From IMG/VR virus record IMGVR_UViG_3300037423_001363, positions 1 to 41,695 of that record: a stretch of 41,695 nt of DNA. One strand, written 5' to 3'. This stretch comes from a virus. Taxonomy: Duplodnaviria > Caudoviricetes. The translations under genes were made by a program, and so were the position numbers. The notes below the pieces were generated by a model. It was not told where the DNA came from. It searched no databases and worked only from the letters and a program-made list of their open reading frames with translations. This document shows positions 2,680-38,269 of this stretch, piece after piece (positions within the stretch are counted from its first letter, which is position 1; the number at the start of each line of letters is the position of its first letter).

Positions 2680-3720
2680 GTGGCAGCAGCGGCCGAGAGG
2701 ACGAAAGAAGTGAATGAACTAGCGCGTCTGGCAGATGCGACGAAAGCGCTGGCCGAGGTATCGACAGCCAGGGATGCGTGGACATTGGTCCGCACGGCCG
2801 AGGCTGCGCGCCGGTACGCCGAGATGCAGGGGCTCGGCCACGAGGCGATCAACTACGCCACCGGCATCAAGGCGAAGGCGATGATCCTGCTCGCCGACTT
2901 CGTAGATGCCGGTCAGGCCGACGGGACAGTCCGGGAGCGTGGGCGGCCGGAAAATGTGGACGGCGACCACATTTTCTCACTGCCCGAGTTGCTTGGCACC
3001 GAGGATTCGCAACAGGCCCGCGACGCCGTACGGAACGCGCGCCGCCTGCGCGATGCGCTTGCTGGGGCTGATGTGGACGCGCTCATCAAGGCGGCCAACG
3101 CCGAGGGCGACGACCTCGGCCTGCGCGGCTTGCGTCGGGCCGCAGCGGTCCAGCGGGGACCAGCCCCTGTCGCTGAGCCCGTGCCGCCACCGCCGGGCCG
3201 GTATCGCTGCCTTGTCATCGACCCGCCGTGGCCGATGCCGAAAATCGACCGGGACGTGCGACCGAACCAGGGCCGCGCACTGGACTACGCCACGATGACG
3301 CCCGACCGGCTGGCCGACGAGGAGTGGCTTCCGGTCCGCACGTCCGCTGACGAAGACTGCCACATCTACCTCTGGGTCACGCACAAGTTCCTACCGCTCG
3401 GGCTCGAGCTGCTGGAGAAGTGGGGCTTCGGCTACCAGTGCGTCATGACGTGGCGCAAGAACGTCGGCATCACGCCCTACTCGTGGATGTACGACACCGA
3501 GCACGTGCTGTTCGGCCGCCGCGGCAACCTGCAACTCACGCAGCTGGGTCTGCGGCTGTCCTTCGACGCGCCCGTGACCGGGCACAGCGTCAAGCCTGAC
3601 GTGTTCTATGACCGGGTGCGTGAAGCAAGCCCCGGCCCGCGGCTCGACATGTTCCCCGGTGTCGCGCACGACGGATTCGAGCCATGGGGACTGGAGGCAA
3701 GTCACCGTGTCGACGTATGA
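2680..3720 (+). CDS. MT-A70 family (N6-adenine) DNA methyltransferase with phage N-terminal domain
   Basis: YRCLVIDPPW, Y.TM, HIYLWVT, WGF.Y..TW.K, TEHVLFGRRG, HSVKPD, RLDMF are all MT-A70 motifs. The start may be GTG 2710. Confidence 0.9.
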   Translation: MAAAAERTKEVNELARLADATKALAEVSTARDAWTLVRTAEAARRYAEMQGLGHEAINYATGIKAKAMILLADFVDAGQADGTVRERGRPENVDGDHIFSLPELLGTEDSQQARDAVRNARRLRDALAGADVDALIKAANAEGDDLGLRGLRRAAAVQRGPAPVAEPVPPPPGRYRCLVIDPPWPMPKIDRDVRPNQGRALDYATMTPDRLADEEWLPVRTSADEDCHIYLWVTHKFLPLGLELLEKWGFGYQCVMTWRKNVGITPYSWMYDTEHVLFGRRGNLQLTQLGLRLSFDAPVTGHSVKPDVFYDRVREASPGPRLDMFPGVAHDGFEPWGLEASHRVDV

Positions 3721-5401: not shown

Positions 5402-5740
5402 GTGAAGTCGACCTACGAGCCCGTCGCACGCGCACGGCCGACCGCACCCCACGTCACGCGCCGGCAACTCGAGATCCTGCGGCTCATCGCCGACGGCCAC
5501 AACGACCACCAGATCGGTGAACGGCTGAACATCAGCCACCACACCGTCCGGCTGCACAACTCGGCGATGTACGCCGCACTCGAAGCGACCGGCCGCGCCC
5601 ACGCCGTGGCGATCGCCTACCGCACCGGCCTACTCAACACGGATGCCCGTTCCGCCCAGCGCCGCACCGACGGCACTAGCACGCACCCCGGACGTCCCAA
5701 CCCCGCAGAGACCGCCACAGCCCCACAGGAGACCCGATGA
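5402..5740 (+). CDS. LuxR/GerE-type HTH regulator
   Basis: VTRRQLEILRLIADGHNDHQIGERLNISHHTVRLH..L.ATGRAHAVAIAYRTGLL. Confidence 0.9.
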   Translation: MKSTYEPVARARPTAPHVTRRQLEILRLIADGHNDHQIGERLNISHHTVRLHNSAMYAALEATGRAHAVAIAYRTGLLNTDARSAQRRTDGTSTHPGRPNPAETATAPQETR

Positions 5741-21423: not shown

Positions 21424-21966
21424 ATGACCGCCGACTTCGACGCCCTGCTCGACGGGGCGAAGCTGCCGGAGAAGACCGTTCCGGTGTGCCTGCGCGGCGA
21501 CCTGGTAGCCGAGTTCGAGGGCCTGGATCGCGAGCTGAAGGAGATCGAGCGCAAGAACTCCGACAGCCTGGACGGCTCCGGGATCGGCGCGCTACTTGAC
21601 CGGATGGAAGCCCTGCAGGCCGAGATGCGGGAGCACACGTACCTGTTCCGGTTGCGGGCGATGCCGAAGCCGAAGTTCCGGGCGCTGATCGCCGCGCACC
21701 CGCCGCGGCGTGGCGACGACGGTGAGCTGGTCGACGCGGACAAGTTCATGGGCATGAACGTCGAAACGTTCTGGGACTCATTGATTCGCGCCTGCCTGAT
21801 CGATCCGGTGCTCGACGATGAGAAGTGGCGGCGCACCGAGGCGGCGCTGACCGACAAGCAGTACGAGCAGTTGTCCGATGCGGCGTGGGGCCTCAACCGG
21901 GGTGAAGTCGACATCCCTTTCTCGCTCGCCGCATCGCGGATCAACCGGGTTTCCGCCGACGAGTAG
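21424..21966 (+). CDS. Tail assembly chaperone (G)
   Basis: Lies between tube and TMP; F.LRAM....R.LIAAHPPR..LN....IPFS. Confidence 0.88.
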   Translation: MTADFDALLDGAKLPEKTVPVCLRGDLVAEFEGLDRELKEIERKNSDSLDGSGIGALLDRMEALQAEMREHTYLFRLRAMPKPKFRALIAAHPPRRGDDGELVDADKFMGMNVETFWDSLIRACLIDPVLDDEKWRRTEAALTDKQYEQLSDAAWGLNRGEVDIPFSLAASRINRVSADE

Positions 21967-22334
21967 AGACCGCCGACCGGCTCCGCATCCCGGGTTCCAG
22001 GTTCGACGGCCGGGAGCCAGCCGAGATCACCGAGTACGAGTACGACGACGTTGGTCGGCTGGTGCGGTCGGTGACGACCCGGGAACCGGAATGGACGGAA
22101 CAGGACCGCGCCGAGCAGTTGGCGTTGTCGCTGTACCGGGAACGCCCCTGTCCGTGCGGGTGTGGTCAGCCTGCCGCGTTGACGCTGATCCCTGAGGCCG
22201 ATGGTCCCGGGTGGGAGATCACCGAGACGACGTGCACGGCGCGACTGGCGCTGCTCGAGGCGCAGGCGGGCGTGGCTGAGAAGCGCAAGTATCCACAGGC
22301 CAGCCTATGGAGCGTCAAGCCGAGGAAGCGTTAG
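21915..22334 (+). CDS. Tail assembly chaperone frameshift extension (GT, -1 PRF at CCCTTTC)
   Basis: C CCT TTC slippery heptamer at 21915-21921; the -1 frame is open to 22334 (PFLARRIAD..GREPAEITEYEYDDVGRLVRSVTTREPEWTEQDR..CPCGCG). Confidence 0.85.
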   Translation, partial: PFLARRIADQPGFRRRVETADRLRIPGSRFDGREPAEITEYEYDDVGRLVRSVTTREPEWTEQDRAEQLALSLYRERPCPCGCGQPAALTLIPEADGPGWEITETTCTARLALLEAQAGVAEKRKYPQASLWSVKPRKR

Positions 22335-22699
22335 TAGTTCTCGCTCATGCTGATGATGAACGAGAGGGCAAGGAAGGCGTATCCGAGGCCGAGCCCCCAG
22401 GTCGCCATTCTCAGGCCGCTGGCATTGCCGCGCTTGATTTCGTGTCGGGCGCTGTGCCCGAAGATGATCGCGAGTATGCCGAGGATGCCGAATGGGCTCT
22501 CTAGGGGCGTGGCCATGGCGATGATGCCGCAGACCAATGCCGCGATCGCCCAGACGCTGCGTGGCGGCTTCGACGTGTCGTCGTAGTCGGTGTCCTTGTC
22601 CGGCAAACGGCCGGTGCGGTTCATGTAGTCCAGCGCGCGGTCGTAGTCCACGTCTTCCGCGACGTCGTCGACTGCGTACTGCCTCTTGGGGCGTGCCAC
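22331..22699 (-). CDS. DUF4190-like two-TM membrane protein (antisense moron)
   Basis: AIAALVCGI..GILAIIFGH.A..EI.R...G..MA..GL.LGY is the DUF4190 pattern; GTG start 7 nt after a -10 box. Confidence 0.8.
   Translation of the reverse strand: MARPKRQYAVDDVAEDVDYDRALDYMNRTGRLPDKDTDYDDTSKPPRSVWAIAALVCGIIAMATPLESPFGILGILAIIFGHSARHEIKRGNASGLRMATWGLGLGYAFLALSFIISMSENY
22608..22638 (-). repeat. 31-bp inverted repeat, copy A (in DUF4190-like gene)
   Basis: Reverse complement GCGCGCTGGACTACATGAACCGCACCGGCCG is identical to 25373-25403. Confidence 0.95.
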
Positions 22700-22706
22700 A
22701 GCACCG

Positions 22707-22752
22707 AGTGTGACCGGCCGGTAGCGATCTAGCAATGTCTGTCGTTGATCTG
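22707..22752 (-). promoter_or_regulatory. Leftward promoter module, copy 1
   Basis: Minus strand CAGATCAACGACA..TTGCTA-N17-CACACT; shared with 32451-32497. Confidence 0.7.
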
Positions 22753-22776
22753 ACTGTTCAGTGGCTGGGGGTGACC

Positions 22777-25700
22777 GTGGCACTACGGACAGTGGGCGTG
22801 AGGTTGGTGGCAGATGTCTCTTCGTACATGACCAGTCTGAAGCGGGCCGGGGTCGCCACGAAGGACTTCGCGGGCGGTCTCGACCAGGCGGCCAAGGGCG
22901 GCAAGCTGGACAAGGTCTCCGACCAGGCGCTGCGCCTCGGTGTAGTCGGAGTCGGCGCATTCGCTCTGGTCGTGAAGTCGGCCGCGGACTTCGACAAGCA
23001 GATGTCGTCGGTCGCCGCGGCCACCCACGCCGGCGCGGCCGAGATGGGCCAACTGCGCGCGGCCGCGCTGCAAGCCGGCAAGGACACCCAGTTCTCCGCC
23101 ACGCAGGCCGCGAAGGGCATCGAGGAGCTGTCCAAAGCCGGTGTGTCGACGGCGAACATCCTCGGCGGCGGACTGAGGGGCGCTCTCGACCTCGCCGCAG
23201 CTGGCCAGCTCGATGTAGGTGAGGCGGCCGAGACCGCAGCCACCGCGATGACCCAGTTCGGCTTGTCCGGCGGCCAGGTCCCGCATATCGCCGACCTGCT
23301 CGCCGCGGCCGCTGGCAAGGCGCAGGGTTCCGTGCACGACATGGGCTTTGCGCTGAAGCAGAGCGGCCTGGTCGCATCCCAGTTCGGCCTGTCGGTCGAG
23401 GACACCACCGGCACGCTGGCCGCGTTCGCCTCCGCGGGCCTGATCGGCAGCGACGCCGGCACATCCTTCAAAACGATGTTGTTGCAGTTGGCGAACCCGG
23501 CCGAGAAGACCCAAAACCTGATGAAGCGGTTGGGCATCAACGCCTACGATGCGTCCGGTGCCTTTGTCGGCATTACCAACCTCGCCGGCCAGCTGCAGAC
23601 AAAGCTGGGCGGGCTGACCCAGGCGCAGCGCGATGCGGCGCTGGCGCAGATCTTCGGCACCGACGCGATCCGCGCCGCGAACGTGCTGTACAAGCAGGGC
23701 ACCGCCGGGATCCAGGGCTGGATCGACAAGACCAACGACGCTGGCTACGCCGCTGAGACGGCGCGGATCAAGACGGACAACCTGGCCGGTGACATCGAAC
23801 GCCTCAAGGGCTCGCTCGAGACGCTGGCCATCGAGTCCGGGTCCGGCGCCAATGGCGGCCTACGGGTGCTGACGAAGTCGCTCAACCAGTTGATCGACGG
23901 ATTCGGGCAACTACCGCCGGCCGTCGGCTCGTCGGTGACGGTGCTGGCCGGCGTCGGCGGCGCATCGTTGCTGGCGCTGGCTGGGTTCATCAAGGTCCGC
24001 AAAGGCATGGCTGAGGCCACCGCGCAGCTCAATGCGATGGGTCCGGCCGGCGAGAAGGCGGCCACCGGTTTGCAGAAGGGCGCGGCCGCCGCCGGCAAGT
24101 TGGCAGTGGCATTTGCCGCGCTGCAGGTGGCGGGGGCGATCGTCAGTTCGTTCCAGACCGAACTGAACCCGCAGATCGATGCGGCGACCAAGGGTATGGA
24201 GCGGTGGGCCGACGGCGCCCTGTTGTCGGGCGAGGCTGCGCGCCTATTCGGGGCCAACAGTACGGAGTTGGATCGTGCTCTTAACGGTCTGGCGGACCGC
24301 GGCTTTTCGCATGCTACCGATGCGCTCACGGACTGGATCTTCGGCCTCGGCGGGGTGAGCAGCCCGCTCGATGCCGCGAAGACCCAGGTCGACGCATTTG
24401 ACCAAGTCCTGTCCTCAATGGTCAAGGAGGGTCATGGCGCCCAGGCGCTGGTCTACGTCGAGGCTCGGGCCAAGGCGACGGGCCGCTCCGTCGACGACCT
24501 GAAGAAGCTGCTGCCCGCCTTCTCCGGCGCACTCGAGACGACCGGCACCTCGACGAAGAAGCTGTCCGACTCGCTGAACTGGGTCGGGCCGATGTCCGAC
24601 AAGGCGAAGGCCGCGCTGGACGGTGCGAAGGCCGGCGTCAAGGGCGTGGGCGGCGCGGCCGCGCAGTCGGCCGAGGACATCAAGAAGATGACCGATGCCG
24701 TCGAGGACCTGTTCAAGTCGCAGATGAGCCTCGACCGGGCCGACATCGCCATGCGCAACGGCATCGTCGACCTGTCCAAGGAGCTGAAGTCCGGCGCCCG
24801 GTCGCTGAGCCTGAACAGTGCCGAGGGCCGCAAGAACCGGTCCGCGGTGCTCGATCAACTTGCCGCGATCGACGACCTGCGGCAGGCCCGCATCAATCAC
24901 GGCATGACCCTGGACCAGGCGCAGGGCAAGTACACCAAGGACATCGCCGGCCTGCGTAAGAGCATGCTGCAGGCCGGATTCTCAAAGAAGGCCGTCGACC
25001 AGCTGCTCGGCTCCTACAAGGTGATCCCGCCAAAGGTTGATACGAAGATCAACCAACCGGGCATGAAGGACGCGAAGACCAACACCCAGACCTTGTGGGA
25101 CAAGCTCAAGGGCGTCGACGGGAACTGGACCGCGCACATCCATACCACCGGCTACGCCGACACCGCCACCAAGCTGCGACACCTGCTCGCCGCGCAGCAG
25201 GCCGCGAAGCAGGGCATCAGCGTCAACGAGGCGAACCGCGAGCTCGGCCACTTCTTCGCCGGCGGCGGTTGGACCGGGCCGGGCCCGAAGTACAAGCCCG
25301 CCGGCGTGGTGCACGCCGACGAGTTCGTGGTCCGCAAGGAGTCCCGGCAGCAGATCGAGGCCGCCAAGCCGGGCGCGCTGGACTACATGAACCGCACCGG
25401 CCGGTGGCCCGGCTACGCGGCCGGTGGTGTCGTGATGCCGTTCCCGTACACCACCAGCAAGACGAAGATGCCGGTGCCTGCGCTGCCGCCCGGCGGGCAG
25501 ACCCTGAATTTCATGGTGCAGGTTGTCCGGGCTGCGTTCCCGGGTCTGCATCTGATCTCCGGCTACCGGCCTGGTGCGCACACCCTGTCCGGGGCGCTGT
25601 CGTACCACGCGTTGAAGCGGGCCACGGACTGGCCGCCGTCGCGGCCGCTCGCCGAGTGGATCAACTACATGTACAAGTCGCGGACGAAGGAACTGATCAC

Positions 25701-26055
25701 CCCGTGGAACGAGCTGAACATCCACAACGGGGCCCGGCACTCCTATTCCGGGGCGGTGTTCCGGCAGCACAACTTCGCCGGCGGCAACGCGCACGACCAC
25801 TGGGCGATGGCCGGTGGCGGGGTGCTGCGGGAGCCGGTGTTCGGGGTCGGCGCGTCCGGTGACACGTACAGCTTCGCCGAGCGTGGCCCGGAGACGGTCA
25901 TCCCCGGGACCGCCGCGGGCGGCATGGGCGGCGGGAACACCTACCAGATCACGATCAACGCGACGCCGCTGTCGCACCCGCGGGAAATCGGCCGCGAGGC
26001 GGTGTACTTGATCCAGCAATATGAGGCGGCCAACGGCTCGGGCTGGCGCAAGTGA
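22777..26055 (+). CDS. Tape measure protein with C-terminal metallopeptidase-like domain
   Basis: AADFDKQMS.V.A, T.FSATQAA..IEEL.KAG and GSDAGTSFKTML (TP901-type core); FAGGGWTGPG.KY.PAGVVHADEFV; SGYRPG..H..RATD..HDH. Confidence 0.95.
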   Translation: MALRTVGVRLVADVSSYMTSLKRAGVATKDFAGGLDQAAKGGKLDKVSDQALRLGVVGVGAFALVVKSAADFDKQMSSVAAATHAGAAEMGQLRAAALQAGKDTQFSATQAAKGIEELSKAGVSTANILGGGLRGALDLAAAGQLDVGEAAETAATAMTQFGLSGGQVPHIADLLAAAAGKAQGSVHDMGFALKQSGLVASQFGLSVEDTTGTLAAFASAGLIGSDAGTSFKTMLLQLANPAEKTQNLMKRLGINAYDASGAFVGITNLAGQLQTKLGGLTQAQRDAALAQIFGTDAIRAANVLYKQGTAGIQGWIDKTNDAGYAAETARIKTDNLAGDIERLKGSLETLAIESGSGANGGLRVLTKSLNQLIDGFGQLPPAVGSSVTVLAGVGGASLLALAGFIKVRKGMAEATAQLNAMGPAGEKAATGLQKGAAAAGKLAVAFAALQVAGAIVSSFQTELNPQIDAATKGMERWADGALLSGEAARLFGANSTELDRALNGLADRGFSHATDALTDWIFGLGGVSSPLDAAKTQVDAFDQVLSSMVKEGHGAQALVYVEARAKATGRSVDDLKKLLPAFSGALETTGTSTKKLSDSLNWVGPMSDKAKAALDGAKAGVKGVGGAAAQSAEDIKKMTDAVEDLFKSQMSLDRADIAMRNGIVDLSKELKSGARSLSLNSAEGRKNRSAVLDQLAAIDDLRQARINHGMTLDQAQGKYTKDIAGLRKSMLQAGFSKKAVDQLLGSYKVIPPKVDTKINQPGMKDAKTNTQTLWDKLKGVDGNWTAHIHTTGYADTATKLRHLLAAQQAAKQGISVNEANRELGHFFAGGGWTGPGPKYKPAGVVHADEFVVRKESRQQIEAAKPGALDYMNRTGRWPGYAAGGVVMPFPYTTSKTKMPVPALPPGGQTLNFMVQVVRAAFPGLHLISGYRPGAHTLSGALSYHALKRATDWPPSRPLAEWINYMYKSRTKELITPWNELNIHNGARHSYSGAVFRQHNFAGGNAHDHWAMAGGGVLREPVFGVGASGDTYSFAERGPETVIPGTAAGGMGGGNTYQITINATPLSHPREIGREAVYLIQQYEAANGSGWRK
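25373..25403 (+). repeat. 31-bp inverted repeat, copy B (in TMP)
   Basis: GCGCGCTGGACTACATGAACCGCACCGGCCG encoding ALDYMNRTGR. Confidence 0.95.
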
Positions 26056-28216: not shown

Positions 28217-29119
28217 ATGGCCATCTCTCCTGAGTATCCGGACCTGCGGTGGATGCCGCCGGCGTCGTGGACGAACGCGAACCGGTCGAGTGTGCAGCTG
28301 GTCGTCATCCACACCACCGAGGGCAGCGAGGGCCCGATGTCGGCGGAGGACGGAGCCGCGTACGACCAGCGCCGCACCGACGGCACCAGCACGCACTTCT
28401 TCCACGACAGCGACAGCACCGTGCAGTGCGTGCGGACGGAGGACATCGCGCACGCCGCCCGGCATCAGGGCAACCTGCGCGGCATCCAGCACGAGCTGTG
28501 TGGCAGCGCCTACCAGGGCGCCGCCGGCTGGGCGGATGCGGTCAGTCAGGGCACGCTGCGGCAGGCGGCCCGGCAGTGCGCACGGGACGCGAAGAAGTGG
28601 GGTATCCCGGTCCGGAAGCTGACCGTGGGCCAGGTCGCCGACGGGGTGAAAGGCTTCTGCGGCCACGTCGAGATCACGTACGCGTTCCCGCAGGACAACG
28701 GCACGCATACTGATCCCGGTCCGACGTTCCCGTGGTCACAGTTCCTGGACCTGGTCCAGGCCGAAATGAAAGGTGACGTCAACATGCCCACCGTCGATGA
28801 GATCGTGACCGGTCTGCTGTCCGCCAAACTCGGCTCGTCCGGTCCGACGGTCGGGGTCGCCCTGCAGACCGCCATCAGCGACGCAGCCCGGGACAAGATC
28901 CTGTCCGCGAACCTCGGCAGCTCCGGCCCGAACGTAGCCGTCGCCCTGCAGACCGGCGCGTACCAGAACTCGGTGTCGCTGCTGGCCAAGGCGTCGGACC
29001 TGCTGGCCGCGGCCACCGAGCTGCTGGCCGGGCAGGCGGCGGAGAGCAACGCCATCGCGGAGTTGGCAGCCGCCATCGCGGACCTGCGCGCCAGCCTCGT
29101 TCCGCCCGTCACCGGTTAA
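28217..29119 (+). CDS. Endolysin, N-acetylmuramoyl-L-alanine amidase (Amidase_2/PGRP)
   Basis: VVIHTTEG..STHFF..VQCV...AHAA..GIQHELCG..GH..HTDPGP.FPW. Confidence 0.92.
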   Translation: MAISPEYPDLRWMPPASWTNANRSSVQLVVIHTTEGSEGPMSAEDGAAYDQRRTDGTSTHFFHDSDSTVQCVRTEDIAHAARHQGNLRGIQHELCGSAYQGAAGWADAVSQGTLRQAARQCARDAKKWGIPVRKLTVGQVADGVKGFCGHVEITYAFPQDNGTHTDPGPTFPWSQFLDLVQAEMKGDVNMPTVDEIVTGLLSAKLGSSGPTVGVALQTAISDAARDKILSANLGSSGPNVAVALQTGAYQNSVSLLAKASDLLAAATELLAGQAAESNAIAELAAAIADLRASLVPPVTG

Positions 29120-32450: not shown

Positions 32451-32497
32451 AGTGTGAGCGAGCAGTGGTGATCTAGCAACTGTGTGTCGTTGATCTG
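32451..32497 (-). promoter_or_regulatory. Leftward promoter module, copy 2
   Basis: Minus strand CAGATCAACGACA..TTGCTA-N17-CACACT. Confidence 0.7.
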
Positions 32498-36730: not shown

Positions 36731-37336
36731 ATGACCAGCCCCGGCGGACCCGGGCCGAAGCCGACCGGACCCACCCACCCGCAGCCGACCGGCCCCGGCC
36801 GCGGCAACGGCCACGCGCTGCCGCCCATCCTCGCCGCCATTGCGGCGTTGACCTTCGTCGGCCTGGTCGTCGCATCCAACTGGCTGACCGCCCGGTACGG
36901 CCTCGTGCTCGGCTTGGTCACCGCCGGCACGTTCACCGCCGGCCTGGTCCTGGCTGCCCGTGACGCCGTCCGCGAGGCCGCGGGCATCTGGGCGTCGCTC
37001 GGTTGCGTCGCCGTTGGCTGCGCCCTGTCCGTGGTCATGTCGACGCCGCAACTAGCGCTGGCATCCGGGGCCGCGTTCGCCCTGTCCGAGTTGGTTGACA
37101 CCGCGGTCTACGAGCCGCTACGCCGCCGCAGCCGGACCCGGGCGTTGGCCTGGTCCAACCTGGTCGGCTCCGTGGTCGACAGCGTCCTGTTCCTGACGCT
37201 GGCCGGGTTCCCGCTATGGCCGGCCGTCGCCGGTCAGGTCGCCGTGAAGTGGGCCGTCTGCGTCGCGCTGCCCCTGCTCGCTATCGGGGGTGCCCGTGCG
37301 GTACTTCGCGACCGCCTCCGGACCGAAGGTGCGTGA
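36731..37336 (+). CDS. VUT family (YhhQ-like, queuosine-precursor transporter) membrane protein
   Basis: ASNWLT..AGTFTAGL....RD.V.E..LALASGAAFALSELVD..VY..L..SN.VG..VDS.LFL.LAG. Confidence 0.88.
   Translation: MTSPGGPGPKPTGPTHPQPTGPGRGNGHALPPILAAIAALTFVGLVVASNWLTARYGLVLGLVTAGTFTAGLVLAARDAVREAAGIWASLGCVAVGCALSVVMSTPQLALASGAAFALSELVDTAVYEPLRRRSRTRALAWSNLVGSVVDSVLFLTLAGFPLWPAVAGQVAVKWAVCVALPLLAIGGARAVLRDRLRTEGA
36787..36822 (+). repeat. 36-bp direct repeat, left of VUT-TGT cassette
   Basis: GACCGGCCCcggCCGCGGCAACGGCCACgCGCTGCC; 32/36 identical to 37948-37983. Confidence 0.85.
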
Positions 37337-37949
37337 CGCGATGGCCGCCGGACTGCTCGACCAGATCATCACCCCGGCCGCCGGCAACGCCATCACACCT
37401 GGGGTGGCCTTCTGCGCGGATAACGGGGTGTTCGGTGGCACCTATCCCGGCGACGACGCCTACCTCGCATGGCTCACCGACCGGCAACACCACGCCGACG
37501 CCTGTCAGTTTGTCGTCGCGCCCGACGTCGTCCGCGGTCCCGCTGGTGAACTGCGGCCGGACGCCGCGGCGACGCTCGCCCGCAGCGCGCCGATGCTGCC
37601 GCGCATCCGGGCGCTCGGCTTCCCCGCCGCCCTGGTGGCGCAGAACGGCCTCGAACACCTTGACGTGCCGTGGGACAACTTCGACGTGCTGTTCATCGGC
37701 GGCGACGACGGGTGGAAGGAAGGCCCGCACGCCGCACGGTTGGCCGCCGAGGCGAAGGCGCGCGGCAAACCGGTGCACATGGGCCGGGTGAACAGCCTGC
37801 GCCGGCTACGGATCGCGCAGGCCATCGGCTGCGACTCGGTCGACGGCACCTTCCTCGCGTTTGGCCCCGACCTGAACCTGCCCACCCTGCTTGCGTGGCT
37901 ACGCGAGATCGCCTGGCCGACCCTCTTTGACCTGCGAGGTGTGGCATGA
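37296..37949 (+). CDS. TGT/DpdA-like base-exchange enzyme (putative)
   Basis: ADNG.F, APDVV..D..AT, VAQNG, LFIGG, VHMGRVNS, DSVDGT resemble TGT-fold motifs; overlaps the VUT gene. Confidence 0.65.
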   Translation: MRYFATASGPKVRDAMAAGLLDQIITPAAGNAITPGVAFCADNGVFGGTYPGDDAYLAWLTDRQHHADACQFVVAPDVVRGPAGELRPDAAATLARSAPMLPRIRALGFPAALVAQNGLEHLDVPWDNFDVLFIGGDDGWKEGPHAARLAAEAKARGKPVHMGRVNSLRRLRIAQAIGCDSVDGTFLAFGPDLNLPTLLAWLREIAWPTLFDLRGVA

Positions 37950-38269
37950 CCGGCCCGACCCGCGGCAACGGCCACACGCTGCCCGACCTGCCGCCGCTCG
38001 ACGAGGTCGTCCTGTCCGCCAGGATCCTCGGCGAGCAACTCATCAACGCCCTCGGCCGCGACTTCGACCCGCAGACCGCATCCATTGCGGAGGCGTACCC
38101 AGGCGAGCCGCTGGCCCACGTCAAGCTGGCGATGCTGCGCTCTGACGTCCTGCAGGTGCTGCGCGGGCTGACCGAAGTGAGTCGCCTCGCCGTCGGGAAT
38201 GCGGCCGACCGTGTGATGTTCCCAGACCGCCCGGCCCTTACGCCGGGTGAGACCCGGAGGACCGCATGA
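37946..38269 (+). CDS. Hypothetical protein
   Basis: ATGA coupling; MTGPTRGNGHTLP. Confidence 0.7.
   Translation: MTGPTRGNGHTLPDLPPLDEVVLSARILGEQLINALGRDFDPQTASIAEAYPGEPLAHVKLAMLRSDVLQVLRGLTEVSRLAVGNAADRVMFPDRPALTPGETRRTA
37948..37983 (+). repeat. 36-bp direct repeat, right of VUT-TGT cassette
   Basis: GACCGGCCCgacCCGCGGCAACGGCCACaCGCTGCC. Confidence 0.85.

What the first reader, a model, noticed from the sequence alone, without database searches (positions are those of the whole stretch)
22608..25403. Perfect 31-bp inverted repeat gives the tape measure and an antisense membrane protein the same in-frame peptide
Seen: 22608-22638 is the exact reverse complement of 25373-25403. Both copies are read in frame as ALDYMNRTGR, at residues 22-31 of the DUF4190-like protein and about 867-876 of the TMP, just before its C-terminal peptidase-like domain. 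Identity includes wobble positions and continues loosely (GRLP vs GRWP). A 31/31 match is far beyond chance in 42 kb. Inference, three models. (a) An invertible 2.8-kb segment: flipping would make in-frame chimeras (TMP body plus 2-TM anchor on the minus strand; short leader plus TMP peptidase domain on the plus strand), point the enclosed moron promoter at the tail and lysis genes, and silence normal TMP. (b) A lysogen membrane protein displaying a copied TMP motif as a decoy for superinfection exclusion. (c) A 31-bp duplex in the late mRNA enclosing the TMP start (RNase III-type processing). I know of no described system like this.
Basis: partly seen in the sequence, partly recalled or inferred. 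Interest (0 to 1): 0.85.

Follow-up and report, generated by a model that had tools for sequence, protein, structure and literature searches.

The report
Tape-measure scrap inside phage add-on gene
A soil phage's swappable add-on gene for a small membrane protein carries an exact, in-frame 31-base copy of a piece of the neighbouring tail tape-measure gene; relatives lack the copy and a second such scrap sits elsewhere in the genome, so it is likely a harmless recombination scar rather than a genetic switch, although a newly born decoy peptide is not excluded.

Summary
The 31-bp inverted repeat is exact, in frame in both genes and present in a sequencing run's contigs. It lies in the acidic N-tail of a DUF4190 membrane moron in the HK97-gp15-type slot between tail chaperone and tape measure (TMP). 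The copy is private to this phage: the closest relative has another moron, a relative with a same-slot DUF4190 lacks it, and 0 of 149 homologues carry it. Wobble identity proves little: distant TMPs hold the same 31-mer. The genome has a second 31-nt in-frame scrap (endolysin motif in a LuxR tail, at a module junction), and a relative has an antisense, permuted one. There is no invertase or dyad site, and a flip would split TMP. Best reading: captured filler DNA tolerated in a flexible tail (0.65); nascent TMP decoy 0.2; RNA duplex 0.05; inversion switch 0.04. The scan has noted both kinds before on other DNA, filler scars of 31-50 nt and TMP-copying membrane morons (unchecked AI notes).

The parts
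22331..22699 (-). DUF4190 membrane-protein moron, 122 aa, GTG start; acidic 48-aa N-tail, then three hydrophobic segments; its stop overlaps the stop of the upstream tail-chaperone ORF
22608..22638 (-). Recipient copy of the 31-mer (codons 22-31, ALDYMNRTGR; loose extension to 22602)
22640..22648 (-). First copy of a 9-nt direct repeat (Asp-Tyr-Asp) upstream of the captured block; possible target duplication
   Evidence: 68 of 5000 random blocks have such flanks
22580..22588 (-). Second copy of the 9-nt direct repeat, 60 nt (20 codons) after the first
22707..22735 (-). Promoter-like site (TTG-hexamer, 17 nt, CACACT) 7 nt before the start codon, so likely leaderless; same layout before the slot morons of G001 and G002 and at window 32451-32479
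   Evidence: the sigma-70 consensus scan found 0; function inferred
22777..26055 (+). Tape measure protein, 1092 aa (PF10145; one hydrophobic stretch near residue 387)
25373..25403 (+). Donor-type copy of the 31-mer in TMP (codons 867-876)
25231..25446 (+). Conserved Gly-rich TMP motif that holds the 31-mer; its first part is homologous to lambda gpH 732-770; the copied residues are predicted to form one short helix
   Evidence: low-confidence model, mean pLDDT 50
21424..22334 (+). Two ORFs in the tail-assembly-chaperone position that bound the slot on the left
   Evidence: position between tail tube (PF25595) and TMP; synteny; name inferred
5656..5686 (+). Second captured scrap: 31 nt of the amidase gene, read in frame (QRRTDGTSTH) in the C-tail of a LuxR-type HTH ORF, at a module junction
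28366..28396 (+). Donor-type site of the second scrap in the endolysin (Amidase_2) gene

Best explanation
The moron's N-tail holds an exact 31-base in-frame copy of a conserved tape-measure motif that no relative's moron has, and it was likely pasted in once as filler DNA by illegitimate recombination or a double template switch and kept because a flexible tail would tolerate it. Shown: the repeat, the frames, the variable slot, the absence of the copy from relatives and homologues, a second scrap of the same size at a module junction, and a third in a close relative. Inferred: (1) the insertion event, about 20 codons with a 9-nt duplication; (2) the donor was this phage's ancestral TMP allele or a co-infecting or resident relative's, since the motif is shared base for base among distant TMPs; (3) the phage's Erf annealing protein or host repair could have done it; (4) the scrap is near neutral. 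The moron itself is likely a lysogen-expressed membrane protein, possibly for superinfection exclusion like HK97 gp15, but that would not depend on the scrap.
For: Private to this phage: G001 (L002; TMP C-terminal 284 aa 100% identical) has an unrelated short membrane ORF behind the same promoter and first codons. G002 (L004; TMP N-part 84% aa) has a DUF4190 in the same slot and strand (E 4.3e-12; 45% over 56 aa) with a 16-aa tail and no motif. 15 of the other 15 records where the slot could be located have no moron. Three more phage DUF4190 genes (G007, G023, G033) have acidic tails without it. 0 of 149 homologues (the best 150 of 230 hits, self removed) carry it; best 5 of 12 residues. A TMP self-match of 10 or more of 12 residues occurs in 1 of 20 records with a motif-bearing TMP, this one. 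Same process elsewhere: 5656-5686 copies the amidase 12 nt after homology to G003's LuxR ends (G003's gene stops at residue 83) and 1 nt before homology to G022 resumes; it is spanned by an X1 contig, and X2/X3 contigs leave the window at 5643. G003 has two 29-nt blocks copied antisense and in swapped order from a gene whose order is kept in G021 and G022. Donor need not be the present allele: the moron copy matches G012's TMP at 36 of 37 but its own TMP at 35 of 37; the LuxR scrap matches the amidases of G001, G002 and G003 at 31 of 31 but its own at 30 of 31. Template switches in direct and inverted orientation with 3-30 bp microhomology are documented in E. coli (PMC3161906, passages); illegitimate recombination contributes to phage mosaics (PMC2327257, passages).
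Against: Both scraps in this genome are read in the donor's frame, although 4 of 6 frames are open for each (1 in 16 by chance; the G003 case is antisense). Both come from conserved stretches (amidase window in the top 4.1% of 872), which can be ascertainment but is also what a functional peptide would show. Against GRLP-type TMPs the moron's differences in the Arg-Leu-Pro codons are synonymous (2 of 2 versus G012), a hint of peptide-level conservation. Such long exact repeats are rare: 29 nt or more, 1.5 kb or more apart and not terminal, in 1 of 37 other records. No clean microhomology at the moron junctions was found. No near-identical moron without the insert was found, so the insertion is inferred from distant homologues. 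The scan's notes list several membrane morons that copy TMP pieces (unchecked), so a TMP scrap in a membrane moron may not be coincidence.
Confidence: 0.65

Rival explanations
1. Nascent or working TMP decoy: the membrane-anchored tail shows the conserved TMP helix to the cytoplasm, where it would compete with a superinfecting phage's TMP for a partner during tail assembly or maturation (Tab-like outcome), or titrate a host sensor of that motif.
For: Slot and anatomy match HK97 gp15, whose exclusion depends on the tail (PMC3594210, part 1 of 3 read). T4 Imm binds TMP (bioRxiv 10.64898/2026.03.06.709160, abstract and section 9). Tab acts on the TMP C-terminus (PMC10884400, passages). The copy is in frame and matches one predicted helix with the invariant Leu and Asn; 11 of 12 residues match the own TMP and 12 of 12 match other phages' TMPs. 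Synonymous-only differences versus GRLP TMPs. Leads only: six other genomes noted with TMP-copying membrane morons.
Against: Singleton: no conservation or co-variation. Only 10-12 of about 55 motif residues are copied. The tail is predicted cytoplasmic (no signal peptide; 4 Lys/Arg in the loop after the second hydrophobic segment), whereas the motif lies in the part homologous to lambda's cleaved C-terminal fragment gpHC, which may be released outside the cytoplasm, so jamming of DNA entry is topologically unlikely. The endolysin scrap in a LuxR tail shows that in-frame copies arise here with no TMP or membrane logic. A decoy of its own TMP would need an antidote, and none is evident.
Confidence: 0.2
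2. A 31-37 bp long-range duplex in the late mRNA, enclosing the TMP start, would be cut by an RNase III-type enzyme and tune TMP levels.
For: The two arms pair at -77.4 kcal/mol; no terminator-like site was found in the slot on either strand, so read-through is plausible.
Against: One arm lies 2.6 kb inside a translated gene; relatives with the same operon lack the second arm; the other scrap in this genome is a direct repeat and cannot pair. At most a side effect.
Confidence: 0.05
3. Invertible 2.8-kb segment flipped by a recombinase, switching TMP off and making chimeras.
For: Arm length and spacing resemble invertible tail-fibre segments (recalled); the frames would join in register; an integrase and an Erf-like protein are encoded.
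Against: 0 matches to PF00239 (control rang in 12 of 14 genomes); best dyad in the 31-mer is 8 of 15 pairs; a flip separates 865 from 216 TMP codons, which would block tail assembly (inference); 0 of 27 other loci with the motif have an inverted partner of 26 of 30 or better; the record closes as one circle with 127-nt end repeats in one orientation. Rare accidental flips through 31-37 bp of homology remain possible.
Confidence: 0.04
4. Assembly artefact.
For: 31 is a common assembly word length; run X1 may be the source sample.
Against: A separate assembly of X1 covers both junctions of the moron copy and the whole LuxR scrap without a differing letter at depth about 15-16; the moron frame stays open.
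Confidence: 0.02

Closest known systems
HK97 gene 15 moron (PMC3594210, part 1 of 3 of the text read)
   Same: Small membrane protein inserted between tail assembly chaperone and tape measure genes, absent from most relatives, with its own promoter-like site.
   Different: Here the gene is antisense, a DUF4190, in a 68% GC phage; no terminator was found; exclusion is untested; the part read does not describe a TMP-derived peptide in gp15.
Templated or filler insertions at illegitimate-recombination junctions (template switching in E. coli, PMC3161906, passages; phage mosaicism, PMC2327257, passages)
   Same: Short near-exact copy of a distant stretch, direct or inverted, private to one lineage, at a module junction; one relative shows a two-block permuted copy.
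   Different: The E. coli events read are kilobase rearrangements with microhomology junctions, not 30-nt in-frame inserts; here two scraps are in frame with the donor and come from conserved motifs; the enzyme is unknown.
TMP-targeting exclusion and defence proteins: T4 Imm (10.64898/2026.03.06.709160, abstract and section 9) and Tab of JBD26 (PMC10884400, passages)
   Same: Small phage-encoded proteins that act on TMP; Imm is a membrane protein; Tab acts through the TMP C-terminus.
   Different: The passages read do not describe either as a sequence copy of TMP; no binding or phenotype is known here; no anti-Tab-like partner is evident.
Invertible tail-fibre segments of Mu and P1 (Gin/Cin; recalled, from no call)
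   Same: About 30-bp inverted repeats about 3 kb apart, with one site inside a tail gene.
   Different: No serine invertase, no dyad half-sites, no alternative functional cassette; a flip would break an essential gene.

Membership tests
DUF4190 (PF13828) | Score above the Pfam gathering cut-off | tested here: met
   56.9 bits versus 35, residues 51-114
Moron, HK97 gp15 type | Extra gene between tail chaperone and TMP, absent or swapped in relatives | tested here: met
   3 of 18 records have a gene in the slot, each a different one; 15 have none
Moron, HK97 gp15 type | Own promoter | tested here: inconclusive
   Conserved TTG-hexamer/17/CACACT site before all three slot genes; sigma-70 scan found 0; no expression data
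Moron, HK97 gp15 type | Own terminator | tested here: not met
   0 terminator-like sites in 22100-23000; the scan needs a T-run, which GC-rich hosts may lack
Moron, HK97 gp15 type | Base composition differs from neighbours | tested here: inconclusive
   63.9% GC versus 68.0% for the genome; GC3 0.88 versus 0.89 in TMP
Moron, HK97 gp15 type | Expressed from the prophage and blocks superinfection | not testable with these tools
   Needs a host and phage assays
Site-specific invertible segment (Gin/Cin type, features recalled) | Serine invertase encoded | tested here: not met
   0 PF00239 matches in the complete record
Site-specific invertible segment (Gin/Cin type, features recalled) | Recombination site with dyad half-sites | tested here: not met
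   Best 8 of 15 pairs
Site-specific invertible segment (Gin/Cin type, features recalled) | Both orientations present in the population | not testable with these tools
   Only contigs were available; they break at the repeat and fit either orientation
TMP-mimic membrane moron (class proposed in scan notes, not an established family) | Copied peptide kept in diverged moron versions or co-varying with the cognate TMP | tested here: not met
   0 of 149 homologues; absent from the same-slot DUF4190 of G002 and from G007, G023, G033; no close moron relative was found, so recent selection is not excluded
TMP-mimic membrane moron (class proposed in scan notes, not an established family) | Copy on the membrane side where TMP presents that segment | tested here: inconclusive
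   Tail predicted inside by charge and hydropathy; motif maps to the lambda gpHC side
Filler or templated insertion | Short near-exact copy of a distant sequence, private to one lineage | tested here: met
Filler or templated insertion | Sits at a rearrangement junction | tested here: inconclusive
   Met for the LuxR scrap; the moron copy lies 50 nt inside the swapped cassette (homology to G001 ends at 22689) between 9-nt repeats
Filler or templated insertion | Microhomology at both switch points | tested here: inconclusive
   No empty-site allele to compare; an 8-nt word is shared by the recipient flank and the donor (read) but does not mark the copy's edge

The most novel reading that the evidence does not exclude
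A snapshot of how a tape-measure mimic is born: short conserved pieces of virion and lysis genes are captured in frame into the flexible tails of lysogeny and regulatory proteins, and this DUF4190 moron already uses the captured TMP helix as a membrane-tethered decoy against related phages or against a host sensor of that motif.
Probability: 0.2. Interest if true: 0.7.

Novelty: new member of a known kind. Interest (0 to 1): 0.3.

Why it matters
As a scar it is ordinary, but it is a clean example of phage genes gaining 10-residue pieces of other genes by about 30-nt fragment capture, seen three times in two related genomes. It also warns that an exact in-frame repeat with identical wobble bases in GC-rich phages need not mean an inversion switch or an RNA duplex. 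If the peptide works, it would link such accidental capture to TMP-mimic exclusion proteins, which I did not find in print (searches; open-access library only, listings read by title and start of abstract), and it gives a minimal test: a motif-bearing DUF4190 beside a natural motif-less one from the same slot.

Tried and rejected
Complex prediction of the moron with the 72-aa TMP motif region gave no answer (score 0.00): no evidence either way. AlphaFold2 of the motif region was low confidence (mean pLDDT 50), so no fold search was run. No RNA holder listed; no expression evidence either way. Orientation could not be read from contigs. Close moron relatives: only itself among 70 candidates, none in viral contigs, none in annotated phages, none in the scan's notes by sequence. 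The promoter pattern found only G001 in viral contigs and 0 in metagenome contigs. ESM Atlas gave only DUF4190 look-alikes at 0.87-0.90 and no structure match over TM 0.5. The moron reference was one base out of frame, so '0 families' there is void; one search replaces it. The codon-usage estimate that all codons match given the same peptide (0.02) was set aside because real TMPs match far more often (31 of 31 in G001, G012, G015), though G012 and G015 were fetched because they hold the motif. For the same reason the TMP window's top-1.6% conservation rank is biased and not used. CRISPR-spacer reading: no repeat-like flanks shared by the two scraps by inspection; no Rfam or Cas search was run. 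The third near-repeat (36787/37948) was dropped from the scrap count: it is a duplication flanking an inserted cassette. One of 27 motif hits (L036) is in a non-TMP membrane protein at 26 of 37 identity and was judged chance; the 27 loci include duplicates of the same records. The G001 slot ORF was not scanned against Pfam. Literature searches with no or irrelevant hits. No supplements were read; those of the bioRxiv paper are closed and do not bear on the main claim.
Full report
Setting. The window is a complete 41.7-kb, 68% GC virus record with 127-nt end repeats. It encodes terminase, portal, capsid, tail tube, TMP, amidase, a tyrosine integrase and an Erf-like annealing protein, so it is most likely a temperate siphophage. 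Named genomes holding the same TMP motif are Streptomyces, Gordonia and Williamsia, which points to an actinobacterial host (inference).

Observation. The repeat is exact over 31 nt and 35 of 37 with flanks. The next exact inverted repeat is 18 nt and 0 of 40 simulations reached 31. Both copies read ALDYMNRTGR, at residues 22-31 of the minus-strand protein and 867-876 of TMP. In run X1, contigs end at 22637 and span 22609-25402 with no differing letter at depth 15-16, so both junctions of the moron copy are in the data. X1 may be the source sample, so this rules out an assembly error but is not a second isolate. Such contigs cannot tell the orientation of the middle segment.

The recipient gene. 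It is a 122-aa DUF4190 protein (the '0 families' came from a reference one base out of frame). A promoter-like site (TTG-hexamer, 17 nt, CACACT) lies 7 nt before its start. The same layout precedes the slot genes of G001 and G002 and a leftward gene near the integrase; that it is a lysogeny promoter is inferred. The slot between tail chaperone and TMP is swappable. Of 18 records in which it could be located, 3 hold a gene: this one, a short unrelated membrane ORF in G001, and a DUF4190 in G002. 14 have a gap of 8 nt or less and one has 135 nt without a hydrophobic ORF. A contig of run X3 also joins 22330 to 22689 through other sequence. This is the position of HK97 gene 15 (PMC3594210, part 1 of 3 read). 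Hydropathy and charge put the acidic 48-residue tail in the cytoplasm (prediction).

The donor motif. The 31-mer lies in a Gly-rich TMP motif whose first part aligns with lambda gpH 732-770 (E 5e-7). In lambda, residues from about 690-710 onward form the cleaved fragment gpHC, whose N-terminal region was not resolved (PMC12617516, passages). The copied residues are predicted to form one short helix, in a low-confidence model, with invariant Leu and Asn among 25 aligned TMPs. The motif is conserved at DNA level too. A 23-nt pattern found 27 loci (some duplicates), 26 in TMP context, none with an inverted partner of 26 of 30 or better. G012 and G015, whose TMPs are 1462 and 1455 aa and differ in the flanks, share 35 exact bases with this TMP at that place; they were fetched because they hold the motif, so they show that such identity can occur, not how often. 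Identity at wobble positions therefore does not call for an inversion site or a duplex.

Is the copy conserved? No. G001 has the identical TMP peptide and the same 31-mer but no copy in its moron. G002's same-slot DUF4190 has a 16-residue tail without it. G007, G023 and G033 have DUF4190 genes elsewhere with acidic tails and no motif. 0 of 149 homologues carry it (best 150 of 230 hits, self removed). Among 38 records, a self-match to the longest ORF of 10 or more of 12 residues occurs only here; 20 of those ORFs are motif-bearing TMPs and 2 records had no long ORF. The window's tail is 20-30 residues longer than those of 11 aligned homologues, and the captured block sits between two 9-nt repeats 60 nt apart, a layout seen in 68 of 5000 random blocks (the Asp-rich tail makes it likelier). 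No close relative of the moron itself was found, so the insertion is inferred from distant homologues and recent selection cannot be measured.

The same thing elsewhere. Only three pairs in the genome reach 26 of 30. The second is 31 nt of the amidase gene, read in frame in the C-tail of a LuxR-type ORF. G003's 89% identical LuxR stops at residue 83 and lacks it. The scrap starts 12 nt after homology to G003 ends and ends 1 nt before homology to G022 resumes: filler at a junction. It is spanned by an X1 contig. It matches three relatives' amidases at 31 of 31 but the own gene at 30 of 31; likewise the moron copy matches G012's TMP at 36 of 37 and its own at 35 of 37. The third pair is a duplication around an inserted cassette and is not counted. 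G003 carries two 29-nt blocks copied antisense and in swapped order from a gene whose order is kept in G021 and G022. Exact non-terminal repeats of 29 nt or more at 1.5 kb or more occur in 1 of 37 other records, so the feature is uncommon but recurs in this lineage, with and without frame keeping.

(a) Inversion: no PF00239 protein, a single integrase, no dyad, and a flip parts 865 from 216 TMP codons. (c) Duplex: stable on paper but absent from relatives and impossible for the direct-repeat scrap. (b) Decoy: known proteins act on TMP (T4 Imm, abstract and section 9 of 10.64898/2026.03.06.709160; Tab, passages of PMC10884400), and the scan's unchecked notes list six other genomes with TMP-copying membrane morons, several said to be conserved or co-varying, plus one case judged an old shared domain. 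That raised my odds from 15% (stated) to 20%. Points for it here: both scraps are in frame (1 in 16 given 4 open frames each), the copy matches a conserved helix, and the differences from G012's Arg-Leu-Pro codons are synonymous (2 of 2). Points against: singleton, 12 residues only, predicted wrong side for blocking entry, and the endolysin scrap as an internal control.

Mechanism. I commit to one-off capture of a 31-37 nt fragment as filler, by a double template switch or Erf- or host-assisted illegitimate joining, kept because it fell in frame in a flexible tail (0.65). Direct and inverted template switches are documented in E. coli (PMC3161906, passages; PMC1428787 and PMC2621351 seen as search listings only), and illegitimate recombination contributes to phage mosaicism (PMC2327257, passages). 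The enzyme and donor molecule are not shown. The scan's notes record similar 31-50 nt scars in other genomes (unchecked, not support).

Verdict. Real, ordinary in kind: a new member of the gp15-slot morons carrying a filler scrap. I found no paper on TMP-copying morons or on such scraps in phages in six searches of an open-access library that lacks most subscription journals. Interest 0.3; the decoy reading has probability 0.2 and would deserve 0.7.

Noticed in passing
window 5656-5686 and 28366-28396: 31-nt in-frame copy of an amidase motif in the C-tail of a LuxR-type ORF, as filler between two modules; matches relatives' amidases better than the own gene.
   Followed up: yes
G003:C1:3199-3253 versus 44445-44502 (L060, L062): Two 29-nt blocks copied antisense and in swapped order onto the end of a small ORF; donor order kept in G021 and G022.
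   Followed up: partly
window 36787-36822 and 37948-37983: 36-nt imperfect duplication flanking a 1.16-kb cassette (Vut_1-family transporter plus an unassigned 219-aa ORF) inserted into a gene that is continuous in G021 and G022.
   Followed up: partly
window 32451-32497 (minus strand): Second copy of the moron's promoter-like element before a predicted membrane-anchored protein gene left of the integrase (PHROG 17706 'membrane protein', E 5e-4); the same element is in G002, G003, G021, G022, and a related one precedes DUF4190 genes in G007 and G023.
   Followed up: partly
L002 3293-3480 (G001) and L004 3253-3513 (G002): Alternative morons in the same chaperone-TMP slot: a short one-helix membrane ORF and an 86-aa DUF4190.
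   Followed up: yes
window 2680-3720: MT-A70-family DNA methyltransferase (PF05063, E 1e-12).
   Followed up: no
window 25477-26052: TMP C-terminal domain with no Pfam match; residues recall an M15-type peptidase (recalled, untested); swapped as a module, since G003 and G017 match only from about 25491.
   Followed up: no
G001:C1:19243-19870: A 1.1-kb insert after the portal gene with duplicated gene-end and 24-nt repeats, another moron-like slot.
   Followed up: no
G032:C1:31223 and 36858: 25-nt exact inverted repeat 5.6 kb apart in a distant record.
   Followed up: no
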